Assembly: GCF_003334785.1 (NCBI RefSeq)
Contig: NZ_QOWV01000017.1
Length of the DNA: 64,000 nt
Direction: 5' to 3' (one strand)
From: Escherichia coli
GTDB taxonomy: Bacteria; Pseudomonadota; Gammaproteobacteria; Enterobacterales; Enterobacteriaceae
Below, in pieces: positions 43,301 through 46,300 of this stretch; positions within the stretch are counted from its first letter, which is position 1, and each line of letters starts with the position of its first letter. Made by a program: the position numbers.

Positions 43301-46300
43301 ATGGCAGATGAGCATCTACATTATAAAGCGGGCAATGCGCGAGTGATTGTGGAATGGCGCGGCTGGCGTATTTTGCCGCTGGTGTGCTACGACTTACGTT
43401 TTCCTGTGTGGTCGCGCAATCTCAACGATTATGACCTCGCCCTGTACGTCGCCAACTGGCCTGCTCCGCGCTCTCTGCACTGGCAGGCATTGCTGACGGC
43501 CCGCGCGATTGAGAATCAGGCGTATGTGGCGGGATGCAATCGCGTCGGCAGCGATGGCAACGGCTGCCATTATCGCGGTGACAGCCGGGTGATTAATCCG
43601 CAAGGAGAGATTATCGCTACTGCCGACGCGCATCAGGCAACGCGCATTGATGCGGAGCTGTCGATGGCAGCATTGCGGGAATATAGAGAAAAGTTTCCGG
43701 CATGGCAGGATGCGGATGAGTTTAGGTTGTGGTGAGTGGGGGTTGTGTTTAAGGACGGGGAGAGTCGGGGTATTACTACGAAAGCCCGCTCCCCGCAAGG
43801 ACTGACGCCAGGTAGTTTCTGTCCATGGCTGCTTTTCGCATCTTACGTCTTAACCCTGCCTTGAATACCTTCTCATTCGTCAAAATATTAATAGCAATGT
43901 GCCGTATCCCTGAAAATAATTCTGCTGCGTTTCCTCTTCTTATTTTGTAGTCGTCTTCATTCATTACCACGTCCAGACGCCTGTGCAGCTTATTCTCCAC
44001 GTGCCAGTGGTTTCGGATTGCTGTGGCGAACTTCTCTGCGGTTAAATCAGCAGAACTGATATAATATCTGACCGTCATTTCTGGCTCTTTCTTTTGTTCT
44101 GCTATTATTGACCGAAAGGAGACTGCCACGCATAATTTCTTCAGTCCTTTCCATTCAAACGTGAAATCAATAAGTTCATCAGGGACATCGCAAACAATAT
44201 GAAGACGGATTTCTTCTCTGCCGTGACTCTTTTCACTCATTGCGTAACTGTCATGCTCTGGATTATTTAATTCTTTCAGCGGAAATTTTTCCTCAAAGGC
44301 TTTATTTAGCCGCCCCTGGTTTCCTTTTACCGCGAATAAATAATCACCTCCCTGTTTTTGTATCTTCTCTGCAATATCTTTCTGGCAACCCATCGCATCA
44401 GTTGTGATGATTTTTCCTTTAATATCCAGCATGTTAAGAAGTTCAGGGATAGCTGTAATCTCATTGGATTTCTCATCCGTCCTGATCTGTCCGATGACCA
44501 GACTGTGCATTGTAGAGAACGCACTAATGACATGAATCGCTCCCTTGCGGCGACTCTTGTCATAAGAATGCCGGAGTGTTTTTCCATCAATTGCGATGAC
44601 GTCTTTATCATCTGAAGTATGGCAATCTCGCATCCAGTTAATAAAGCACTCGTGAAATTTTGAAGGACTGATACAGGATACAACTCTGGCGATGGTATCG
44701 TGAACAGGAATACCATTTTCAAAATCACCATATTGTTTTAAAAAATCGAGATGTGTTTCCCCAAAATCCTCTATATCTTCCCAGCCTTCTGCACCAGAAA
44801 TAACGGCACAAATAGTCAACAGTAGAATATCTGACAATTTATGTTCCACTTTCCAGGCTTGTCTGTAATCGGGGATAATAGAAATATGTTCCATCAATTT
44901 TTTAAGTTCCATTTTGTTCTCCTTAATTATGTAAGGAGTATTTGATCATGTATAAGCAATAAAAAACAGCTTCAGGTAATGAGGAATATCTCAATTTTTA
45001 AACATAAAATGCGAATTATTTAGTACAAAAAATCAGCGTTACGTGATCTTTCCCTGCCCCTGCGCTCACTACCATGGCTCTTTACCACAGCAGCCGGGGT
45101 TGTTTGGGACCGACTTCCGACAGCAGATCCCGGTGGGCCTGCCACCATCTCTTCACAAGCTTATGCTTATTACATGCAAAACGTCCCGTTTTGCATCTTT
45201 GTGCCTACGGCACACCGGTGATCTTTCCCTGATGAGGGATATATTAACTATTGAACATTAGCGCGAATTATTTAGTGCAAAAAATCAGCATCACGTGATG
45301 CTTTTCCTGCTATTAATAACCTCCTCTATTTAACTATATTTTTCATTGATGCAATTCGTAGATTTGAAGAAGTTCAACTGCCACATTTTTATTTTTACTA
45401 TCGCAATTTTTATACCATACCCATGCTTCCGTATTTTTTACTTTTTTTAAATCATCCATAATAAAATCCCCACCAAAAACAGTAAAATACAATGTTTCCT
45501 CATTAAAAATAAAACTCACTGCCCCCCCCTCTTTTATTTTAATTTCCGCTTCATTTGTGTTCAAATCAACTTTTTTAATTACTCCATGTAAGTTGGGTTT
45601 TGATAGTTTTTCTACGCCACCATCAGGAGCGGGTAATATACATCGTTTAAGAACTTTAGCATTTGCACATCCAATAACCCAAATTAGAATGCACACTCCC
45701 ATGTTAATCGCATTAACGTGTCTTAAAACGTTCATATCTAATTCTCTCTCCAGGATGCGAATACATCCAACTTGTCACTTTCTTACACAACTCATCTACA
45801 TCTTCATTCTGTGCACGGGTACATCCCATAGTTGGTTTCCAGCCTTGTCGAGGAGCATAAGGATCGCGCAACGATGATCCCCCACCATGTAGCCATCTTG
45901 CTCTAGTATCTGTAGTATAGATCTTCGTTGTGCCATATGCTGCCGATATTCCTGATTCATTTGTCTCACAACCAACGACTTCACCTGTATATGGATCACC
46001 AGCACCACGTTGAGAACGACGATCAATTCTATTGCTACTATCAAAAGTCATTGAATCACCTGTTTCAGGATCATAATAAATAGTCACTCCTCCAGTCATA
46101 TCAGTAAGAACAAGAGGAGTTTCAGCACCTGCCCGGTCTGGAGCGGGAGGCCCATATACACTTATAACTCGTTCTAACCCCAGTGGATCAGTGTAACGTA
46201 TTGGTACCAGTGGATACGTGTATAGATTTATTCCCCCCTTCAACCCTATCGGATCCTGGGTGATATACCGCCCCTGCAACGGATCGTAGTACCGGTGACG

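What the first reader, a model, noticed from the sequence alone, without database searches (positions are those of the whole stretch)
45011..45309. Imperfect ~46-bp direct repeats bracketing a 250-bp GC-richer segment between the H-rpt element and the immunity gene
Two copies of gcgaattatttag(t/g)(a/g)caaaaaatcagc(gt/at)(t/c)acgtgat(c/g)ctt(t)(c/t)cctg lie about 250 bp apart. A shorter echo (ggtgatctttccctg) occurs inside the bracketed segment, which looks like degraded coding sequence. Repeats of this kind beside Rhs tips could mark recombination boundaries for toxin/immunity cassette displacement, or the outer end of the H-rpt element.
Basis: seen in the sequence. Interest (0 to 1): 0.4.

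Follow-up and report, generated by a model that had tools for sequence, protein, structure and literature searches.

The report
Stacked H-rpt ends with intron stub
The two "direct repeats" are the same end of an E. coli insertion sequence (H-rpt/ISEc1) present twice, and the GC-rich piece between them is the first 159 bases of a dead group II intron that targets that end; this debris is ordinary and already catalogued.

Summary
The two copies share 42/47 positions and none are expected by chance. The similarity extends to 78 nt at 81%, and the 14-nt echo is exact.

The window is the E. coli aspV–yafV Rhs/T6SS island.
- Copy 1 (45011-45056) is the outermost 46 nt of the transposase-upstream (left) end of an intact 1,291-bp H-rpt/ISEc1 element (ISAs1 family, 43766-45056, minus strand).
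- Copy 2 lies in a 78-nt solo left-end remnant (45232-45309) of an older, diverged H-rpt.
- The "degraded coding" segment is not coding. [quoted passage not shown] Leclercq & Cordaux 2012 already list this 159-bp fragment as E.c.I9-tr2. In other genomes, intron stubs of 43, 147, 159, 193 and 460 nt each abut a complete H-rpt left end, and a 97-nt stub lies 43 nt from one. This points to repeated same-orientation H-rpt insertion or deletion events. There is no evidence that the repeats mark Rhs cassette-exchange sites. Novelty: already known. Interest: low.

The parts
43766..45056 (-). Intact H-rpt / ISEc1-type insertion sequence (ISAs1 family), 1,291 bp. The transposase ORF is 43776-44912 (378 aa). 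The left inverted repeat (IRL) is CAGGGAAAGATCA at 45056->45044. The right end is a diverged variant, shared with the K-12 'min 5'/yafF fragment.
   Evidence: The ORF scores 407.7 bits against NCBIfam NF033564 (ISAs1 family transposase, cutoff 70). RefSeq annotates it as an ISAs1 family transposase. Homology to the K-12 H-rpt copies stops at 45056-45059 and at 43777. The terminal inverted repeats are CAGGGAAAGATCA and CAGGGCAAGATTA.
45011..45056 (-). Repeat copy 1: the outermost 46 nt of the left end of the intact H-rpt, including its terminal inverted repeat.
45057..45215 (-). Nt 1-159 of group II intron E.c.I9 (class D). The 5' end reads GUGUG and the stub covers part of domain I. It is 3'-truncated exactly where the intact H-rpt's left end begins, and it lacks domain V and the RT ORF, so it is non-functional.
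   Evidence: Rfam RF01999 (group-II-D1D4-2) scores 81.8 bits against a gathering score of 36, E=7e-17. 97.7% identity with L008 6328-6503; the full intron lies at L008 4600-6486(-). That copy has an ltrA RT/maturase gene and an RF00029 (domains V/VI) hit. The fragment is listed as 'E.c.I9-tr2, fragment of 159 bp, another Rhs region' at about 242.5 kb in BL21/REL606 in PMC3522654 Tables S2/S3.
45216..45231 (-). The intron's 5' exon: the first 16 nt (CAGGGAAAGATCACCG) of the left end of the H-rpt copy the intron had homed into.
   Evidence: In ATCC 8739 the order is IRL nt 1-15 | intron | H-rpt from nt 16. The same exon-intron junction occurs in O157, 042, G3/10, EH10-18-47, MEW and EC2001.
45232..45309 (-). 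78-nt solo left-end remnant of an older, diverged H-rpt (81% identical to the intact copy's end). Its outer 47 nt (45263-45309) is repeat copy 2. It contains a terminator-like hairpin plus T-run, 45302->45287.
   Evidence: The same outer junction CCTG|CTATTAATAACC next to the same immunity gene carries a full-length H-rpt in strains EC21Z-014 and 2013C-3033. It occurs at one place per genome in 1,026 genomes. Hairpin -14.4 kcal/mol, z = -4.3.
45343..45735 (-). Context: a 130-aa ORF immediately downstream of the Rhs C-terminal tip (presumed immunity gene). The stack of IS ends begins 34 nt after its stop codon.
   Evidence: annotated as a hypothetical protein overlapping the end of the RHS element core protein
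45713..49792 (-). Context: Rhs core/tip ORF. In this lineage it is N-terminally truncated and joined to a tssM/IcmF fragment.

Best explanation
The region is a stack of three left ends of H-rpt (ISEc1, ISAs1-family) insertion sequences, all in one orientation, with a dead stub of a group II intron caught between two of them. Read on the minus strand, downstream of the Rhs tip and its immunity gene, the order is as follows. (1) The first 78 nt of an old, diverged H-rpt (45309->45232). (2) The first 16 nt of a second H-rpt (45231->45216), serving as 5' exon. (3) Nt 1-159 of intron E.c.I9 (45215->45057), which homes between nt 15 and 16 of the H-rpt left end. (4) A complete 1,291-bp H-rpt (45056->43766).

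Shown: the identity and exact boundaries of every piece, the intron's homing site, and the recurrence of the same architecture elsewhere.

Inferred history: an H-rpt sat downstream of the immunity gene. A second H-rpt inserted into it at nt 78 in the same orientation. E.c.I9 retrohomed into the second copy's left end. A further intron-free H-rpt was then joined by its precise left terminus to intron nt 159. The DNA between the new copy and the older H-rpt body was lost, either by homologous recombination between the two directly repeated H-rpt bodies (my preferred route, about 50%) or directly as a transposase-made adjacent deletion (about 35%).

The repeat unit has no function of its own in this arrangement. 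On the intact element it is the transposase-binding terminal inverted repeat plus subterminal sequence. The other two tips and the intron stub are inert remnants, apart from serving as possible substrates for further homologous deletion.
For: IS identity: NF033564 at 407.7 bits. The termini are defined by where six K-12/O157/042 copies diverge from their flanks, giving inverted repeats CAGGGAAAGATCA / CAGGGCAAGATTA. The element is multi-copy: 5,335 of 5,426 genomes, median 5 places.

Intron identity: RF01999 at 81.8 bits against a gathering score of 36. 97.7% identity to the 5' end of the 1,887-bp E.c.I9 in ATCC 8739, which carries ltrA and an RF00029 domain V/VI hit. The 5' end reads GTGTG at 45215->45211. 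There are about 79% matches to a repeated element on Sinorhizobium/Rhizobium plasmids. PMC3522654 states that E.c.I2 and E.c.I9 target the Rhs IS (ISEc1-5), and lists a 159-bp fragment at about 242.5 kb in BL21/REL606 and 193-bp fragments in O157 and others. REL606 is 99.6% identical to the window here.

Homing site: ATCC 8739 shows IRL nt 1-15 | intron | H-rpt nt 16 onward.

Transposase-type junctions: 3'-truncated intron stubs of 43, 147, 159, 193 and 460 nt, at several loci, each abut nt 1 of a complete H-rpt left end. A 97-nt stub in 042 lies 43 nt from one.

Same topology without an intron: K-12 RhsC has a 382-bp left-end fragment (C1) directly followed by full-length C2. O157 and EC2001 have 13- and 18-nt tips stacked the same way.

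Older copy: strains EC21Z-014 and 2013C-3033 carry a full H-rpt at the identical outer junction next to the same immunity gene.
Against: No intermediate was found. The expected form is intron 1-159 | H-rpt | intron 160-1887 | H-rpt body. Among 114 genomes holding the intron's 3' part, the sampled rows showed no fragment starting at nt 160 or 194. The insertion-plus-recombination route is therefore inferred, not observed.

Target-site duplications could not be checked, because the proposed deletions would remove one copy.

In strain 042, 43 nt of unidentified sequence separate the intron stub from the H-rpt end, so not every junction is a clean IS-end join.

The identical 147-nt junction occurs at two different loci. 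Some architectures therefore spread by inter-locus recombination or by movement of the composite, rather than arising in situ.

The single-copy state in EC21Z-014/2013C-3033 is a hybrid: the tip is identical to copy 2 and the interior is canonical. Its polarity relative to the window state is unresolved.
Confidence: 0.88

Rival explanations
1. The pieces are the same, but the junctions were made directly by intramolecular transposition (IS-mediated adjacent deletion). The left end of a downstream, tandem, intron-free H-rpt attacked a target inside the upstream intron, and earlier inside the upstream H-rpt. Everything in between was deleted in one step, with no homologous recombination.
For: Every truncation retains the upstream (5') part and ends at nt 1 of a complete IS end. 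Truncated intron copies are overwhelmingly 5'-retaining: about 2,700 genomes hold the 5' 500 nt or part of it, against 114 holding the 3' 1,387 nt. Tandem H-rpts that could act as the attacking copy exist in Rhs loci: K-12 RhsC, and K-12 RhsE (yncI + ydcC). No insertion intermediates were found.
Against: No transposition activity of any kind has been demonstrated for H-rpt (my recollection of Zhao et al. 1993, not checked here). The outcome is indistinguishable from insertion followed by recombination using the sequences available.
Confidence: 0.35
2. The unit 'exon tip + intron stub + full H-rpt' (45231->43766, 1,466 bp) is itself a mobile long-form H-rpt. It would use the outer 16-nt tip as its left inverted repeat and would have arrived at this locus already assembled.
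For: The outer tip carries a perfect copy of the 13-nt IRL. An identical composite with a 147-nt stub is present at two loci: RhsE in EH10-18-47 and the aspV-island Rhs in EC2001. The segment is adjacent to H-rpt at RhsE in many strains.
Against: EC2001 and the window share the same 78-nt remnant | exon tip | intron junction at the same locus but have different truncation points, 147 against 159 nt. The truncations therefore occurred, or were imported by recombination, after the exon-intron unit was already in place. Inter-locus homologous recombination explains the shared junction equally well.
Confidence: 0.12
3. The repeats are functional recombination boundaries for the exchange or displacement of Rhs toxin/immunity cassettes.
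For: H-rpt copies sit between Rhs main genes and orphan tip/immunity modules in several strains. Directly repeated H-rpt sequence can support deletions. The hybrid single-copy state in EC21Z-014/2013C-3033 could be a product of recombination between the two copies.
Against: The repeat is simply the IS terminus and occurs on every H-rpt, including copies outside Rhs loci. Copy 2 occurs at only one place per genome. Nothing links the repeat to tip boundaries, because it lies 34 nt beyond the immunity gene, not at the core/tip junction.
Confidence: 0.04
4. A local tandem duplication, or a 46-bp target-site duplication made by insertion of a 206-bp element.
For: Two direct repeats bracket a compositionally foreign segment.
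Against: The copies differ at 11% of positions, and the similarity extends 31 nt further inward at only about 71%. This is not expected of a fresh duplication. The bracketed DNA is an intron 5' stub whose own 5' exon is a third IS tip. A 46-bp target-site duplication is unknown for any relevant element.
Confidence: 0.01

Closest known systems
H-rpt (Hinc repeat) = ISEc1, ISAs1-family insertion sequence of E. coli Rhs elements (Zhao et al. 1993, J Bacteriol, recalled from memory; 1,291 bp with an 1,134-bp ORF-H)
   Same: Length 1,291 bp and a 378-aa ISAs1 transposase. It is 96-97% identical to K-12 H-rptB, C2 and E, with the same termini and the same position downstream of an Rhs tip/immunity pair.
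   Different: The right end is the diverged 'min 5' variant shared with the K-12 yafF fragment. Its left end abuts intron debris rather than unique DNA.
E.c.I9 (and its relative E.c.I2), class D bacterial group II introns that home into the Rhs IS; fragment 'E.c.I9-tr2' of Leclercq & Cordaux 2012 (PMC3522654)
   Same: Nt 1-159 are 97.7-98.7% identical to E.c.I9. The locus is the same as the 159-bp fragment listed for BL21/REL606. The 5' exon is the same.
   Different: Only 8% of the intron is present. There is no domain V, no RT ORF and no 3' splice site, so it can neither splice nor move.
Tandem partial H-rpts of K-12 RhsC (H-rptC1-C2-C3)
   Same: A left-end fragment (382 bp) is directly followed by the complete left end of the next copy in the same orientation.
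   Different: There is no intron between the copies in RhsC. Here the fragments are much shorter (78 and 16 nt).
RmInt1 of Sinorhizobium meliloti (class D group II intron homing into ISRm2011-2; recalled from memory)
   Same: About 79% nucleotide identity over roughly 100 nt of domain I to a repeated element on Sinorhizobium plasmids. Both introns target an insertion sequence.
   Different: Different host and different target IS. I did not confirm that the Sinorhizobium matches are RmInt1, because the plasmid record's gene table showed nothing there.

Membership tests
ISAs1-family insertion sequence (H-rpt / ISEc1) | Encodes an ISAs1-family DDE transposase | tested here: met
   NF033564 at 407.7 bits, cutoff 70, profile 1-314/314. 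RefSeq annotation agrees.
ISAs1-family insertion sequence (H-rpt / ISEc1) | Short terminal inverted repeats that delimit the element, with unrelated flanks at different copies | tested here: met
   The inverted repeats are CAGGGAAAGATCA / CAGGGCAAGATTA (11/13 matching). K-12 copies B, E, C1 and C2, and the O157 and 042 copies, diverge exactly outside them. The window copy's own right repeat is a diverged variant.
ISAs1-family insertion sequence (H-rpt / ISEc1) | Repeat copy 1 and copy 2 correspond to the element's outer left end | tested here: met
   Copy 1 is nt 1-46 of the intact element. Copy 2 is nt 1-47 of a 78-nt remnant whose outer junction carries a full H-rpt in other strains.
ISAs1-family insertion sequence (H-rpt / ISEc1) | Target-site duplication and demonstrated transposition | not testable with these tools
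   The flanks of the intact copy are intron debris on one side and the yafV side on the other. No duplication is expected after the inferred deletions.
Group II intron (E.c.I9, bacterial class D) | 5' boundary GUGYG directly after the known homing-site exon | tested here: met
   GTGTG at 45215->45211 follows CAGGGAAAGATCACCG. The junction is the same in ATCC 8739 and five other strains.
Group II intron (E.c.I9, bacterial class D) | Domain I sequence and structure | tested here: met
   RF01999 at 81.8 bits against a gathering score of 36. Model positions 1-91 align with high posterior probability. The last ~27 positions align spuriously to the IS end.
Group II intron (E.c.I9, bacterial class D) | Catalytic domain V/VI, intron-encoded reverse transcriptase, 3' splice site | tested here: not met
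   These are absent from the window: there is no RF00029 hit and no RT ORF. They are present in the full-length relative. The window piece is therefore a fragment by descent, not a functional intron.
   The repeat is found only as the end of H-rpt copies, including in a non-Rhs glycosyltransferase cluster.

The most novel reading that the evidence does not exclude
The recurrent architecture is 5' exon tip + 3'-truncated E.c.I9 stub, in most cases directly followed by nt 1 of a complete intron-free H-rpt. It was seen with at least six different truncation points and at several loci. It may reflect a systematic process rather than accidents. H-rpt transposase might preferentially join its left end into or next to its own left-end region and the intron lodged there. 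The intron even contains an IRL-like sequence, CAGGGGGAACGATCA, at nt ~150-165. Such joining would repeatedly kill and replace intron-bearing copies, so that the IS purges its own retroelement parasite. This could help explain why about 2,700 of 5,426 genomes keep only dead 5' stubs while 114 keep the intron's 3' part.
Probability: 0.2. Interest if true: 0.45.

Novelty: already known. Interest (0 to 1): 0.15.

Why it matters
It matters little beyond correct annotation. The region has no annotated features under the intron stub and remnants in RefSeq, and a sequence-only reader could mistake it for a regulatory or recombination module. Resolving it shows three things. The repeats are IS termini. 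The GC-rich insert is a previously listed group II intron fragment. The arrangement also records a layered history at an Rhs/T6SS locus, from IS to IS to intron to IS. The one mildly interesting by-product is the consistent way the intron stubs are capped by complete H-rpt ends. This bears on how an IS and the intron that parasitises it turn over in E. coli populations.

Tried and rejected
1. Right-end or C-terminal coding remnant of another ISAs1 element. tblastn with the H-rpt transposase found nothing, and all six frames lack a convincing ORF. Local DNA alignment to the whole H-rpt on both strands found only the 14-nt tip, at a score within the shuffle range. Rejected.

2. Left end of a different ISAs1-family element sharing only the inverted repeat. 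I held this provisionally after and dropped it when Rfam identified a group II intron.

3. The Rfam hit coordinates 45026-45146 suggested that the intron overlaps copy 1. The alignment shows that only model positions 1-91 are genuine. The rest is the IS end mimicking a hairpin. O157 and G3/10 show the true intron continuation.

4. Search for a full-length parent of the diverged 78-nt remnant. It matches one place per genome, always this locus, so no parent exists in complete E. coli genomes at megablast sensitivity.

5. Search for reciprocal intron 3' fragments starting at nt 160 or 194, which would be insertion intermediates. None appeared among the sampled rows. The few 5'-truncated or other fragments I checked are cut by IS1 or IS256.

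6. Annotation of a Sinorhizobium plasmid hit, to confirm RmInt1. The gene table was empty there, so this is uninformative.

7. Literature. Full-text searches for H-rpt plus group II intron found nothing. Dai & Zimmerly 2002 (PMC1370338) is not held.

8. Promoter scan of the region: 3 weak sites against 1.6 expected, which is not informative.

Full report
OBSERVATION. The repeat is real. 45011-45056 and 45263-45309 align at 42 of 47 columns with one 1-nt indel. A 27-nt core pattern with up to 3 mismatches occurs exactly twice in the 64-kb window and never in 100 shuffles. The similarity extends inward to 78 nt, 44979-45056 against 45232-45309, at 81%. The echo GTGATCTTTCCCTG is exact at 45043-45056 and 45218-45231. 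The bracketed DNA is 55% G+C, against 29-37% for its neighbours.

CONTEXT. The window is Escherichia coli. The 501 bp around the finding are 100% identical to many complete genomes. The locus is the aspV-yafV island: fadE, ivy, yafV, an ISAs1 transposase, a small ORF, an Rhs core protein, T6SS remnants and tRNA-Asp. The 378-aa ORF at 43776-44912 (minus) is an ISAs1-family transposase, scoring 407.7 bits against NF033564.

COPY 1 IS THE LEFT END OF AN INTACT H-rpt. I fetched the K-12 H-rpt copies at RhsB, RhsC, RhsE and min 5, plus copies in O157 and 042, and compared them with the window. On the transposase-upstream side all copies share sequence up to window position 45056 and then diverge into unrelated DNA. 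On the other side the canonical copies end 10 nt past the stop codon. The termini are inverted repeats, CAGGGAAAGATCA on the left and CAGGGCAAGATTA on the right. The element is therefore 43766-45056, which is 1,291 bp. That is the length I recall for H-rpt from Zhao et al. 1993 (recalled, not checked here). Copy 1 is its outermost 46 nt. The region matches 5,335 of 5,426 genomes with a median of 5 places each, as expected for a multi-copy IS.

THE MIDDLE SEGMENT IS A GROUP II INTRON STUB.
- It shares nothing with H-rpt except the 14-nt tip.
- Rfam gives a full-length match to RF01999 (group II intron D1-D4-2) on the minus strand, at 81.8 bits against a gathering score of 36 and E about 1e-16.
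- The alignment shows that model positions 1-91 are genuine. The last part is the IS end imitating a hairpin.
- A distant search of plasmids hit a repeated element in Sinorhizobium and Rhizobium at about 79% identity. This is consistent with RmInt1-like class D introns, although I could not confirm that from annotation.
- Leclercq & Cordaux 2012 (PMC3522654) state that E.c.I2 and E.c.I9 specifically target the Rhs IS (ISEc1-5).
[quoted passage not shown] - REL606 is 99.6% identical to the window across this region.
- In ATCC 8739 the 1,887-bp intron carries ltrA and an RF00029 domain V/VI hit. It lies between nt 15 and 16 of an H-rpt left end...CAGGGGAAGATCACG|GTGTGCC...intron...CACT|AGAAGTACACTTTTTGTAC....
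- Window 45057-45233 aligns to it at 97.7%.
- Hence 45215->45057 is intron nt 1-159, and 45231->45216 is its 5' exon, the first 16 nt of an H-rpt. That exon is the 'echo'.

COPY 2 IS AN OLDER H-rpt TIP. 45309->45232 corresponds to nt 1-78 of an H-rpt-like left end. The outer 47 nt are 89% identical to the intact copy and the inner 31 nt about 71%. It occurs once per genome in 1,026 genomes, always at this locus. Strains EC21Z-014 and 2013C-3033 have the same Rhs tip and immunity gene. There, the identical outer junction (CCTG|CTATTAATAACC) leads into a full-length H-rpt whose terminal 48 nt are identical to copy 2. So an H-rpt downstream of this immunity gene is the older state, and copy 2 is what remains of it here.

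RECURRENCE AND MECHANISM.
- The intron's first 500 nt, or part of them, are present in about 2,700 genomes. Its last 1,387 nt are present in only 114.
- The stubs all retain the 5' end. Their lengths are 43, 97, 147, 159, 193 and 460 nt, with further truncations beyond nt 500.
- This is the opposite of the 5' truncation expected from abortive reverse transcription, so it points to DNA-level events.
- In every case I read but one (MEW, EH10-18-47, EC2001, the window, O157, G3/10), the stub is followed immediately by nt 1 of a complete H-rpt left end. The exception is 042, where 43 unidentified nt intervene.
- The same topology occurs without an intron. K-12 RhsC has a 382-bp left-end fragment followed by full-length C2. 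O157 and EC2001 have 13- and 18-nt tips stacked in the same way.
- A junction at the exact IS terminus is a transposase-type join, not homologous recombination.
- Two routes fit. In the first, an intron-free H-rpt inserts in the same orientation into the resident copy or its intron, and recombination between the two direct H-rpt bodies then removes the interval. In the second, the left end of a tandem downstream H-rpt makes a one-step adjacent deletion.
- I found no intermediates and cannot separate the two routes.
- The identical 147-nt junction occurs at two loci, which shows that inter-locus recombination or movement of the composite also contributes.

INTERPRETATION CHECK. The cassette-displacement idea is not supported. 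The unit is simply the IS terminus and is also found on H-rpt copies in non-Rhs contexts. 'Degraded coding sequence' is wrong.

VERDICT. All components are known families, and the intron fragment itself is already tabulated in the literature. Novelty: already known. Interest: low (0.15). The only loose thread with some value is the systematic capping of E.c.I9 stubs by complete H-rpt ends.

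Noticed in passing
window 45287-45302 (minus strand), within repeat copy 2: The old H-rpt tip forms a perfect 6-bp-arm palindrome (AGCATCACGTGATGCT) followed by GATTTTTTG, at -14.4 kcal/mol with z = -4.3. It lies 34 nt downstream of the immunity ORF stop on the same strand, so it could act as the terminator of the rhs-immunity transcript. The equivalent sequence in copy 1 folds weakly (-7.2 kcal/mol, z = -1.4).
   Followed up: partly
window 43766-44056; L007 5099-5555: The right end of the intact H-rpt, next to yafV, is 100% identical to the K-12 'min 5' H-rpt fragment (yafF). 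It has a diverged terminal repeat, TAGTAATACCCCG instead of TAATCTTGCCCTG. The window copy therefore looks like the intact ancestor, or a hybrid, of the K-12 remnant.
   Followed up: partly
window ~49792-51117: The T6SS/Rhs cluster is internally deleted in this lineage. The Rhs core gene lacks its N-terminus and abuts a C-terminal fragment of tssM/IcmF on the opposite strand. Related strains such as 720632 keep vgrG, hcp and a full tss set here.
   Followed up: no
L008 ~6322-6336 (intron nt ~150-165); window 45057-45065: E.c.I9 contains an internal sequence, CAGGGGGAACGATCA, that resembles the H-rpt left inverted repeat CAGGGAAAGATCA. In the window the truncation falls inside it, after CAGGGG. 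This may be coincidence, or a hint that the IS prefers targets resembling its own end.
   Followed up: no
L016 2487-2660 and L018 2486-2690: The identical junction 'intron nt 147 | CAGGGAAAGATCATCAG...' occurs at the RhsE locus of EH10-18-47 and at the aspV-island Rhs of EC2001. This implies transfer of the composite between loci, by recombination or by transposition of the composite.
   Followed up: partly
L002 4163-4200 (O157 RhsE): Upstream of the intron's exon tip there are further stacked mini-remnants: a 13-nt left tip (TGATCTTTCCCTG on the locus + strand) and a 12-nt repeat-like piece (AATCTGCCCCTG). The stacking of IS tips therefore goes at least four deep at RhsE.
   Followed up: no
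L010/L011 3469-3548: In strains with a single H-rpt at this junction, the terminal 48 nt are identical to copy 2 but the interior is canonical (copy-1-like). This hybrid could arise by recombination between the two repeat copies within their shared GCGAATTATTTAGT, or by gene conversion. The polarity is unresolved.
   Followed up: partly
L003 3957-3999 (strain 042): 43 nt of unidentified sequence (ACAGCAAACTGAATACAGAAACATATTGGTTGGAAATGCTATT) separate the H-rpt left end from a 97-nt intron stub. This is the only junction seen that is not a clean IS-end join.
   Followed up: no
window 14428-14627, 34874-34951, 35616-35693, 38945-39022, 55686-55759, 63689-63932: Other Rfam hits above gathering score: IS009 sRNA (14428-14627), three naRNA4/REP-type elements, tRNA (aspV) at 55686, and a tRNA plus 5S rRNA at the window's end (the rrnH end).
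   Followed up: no
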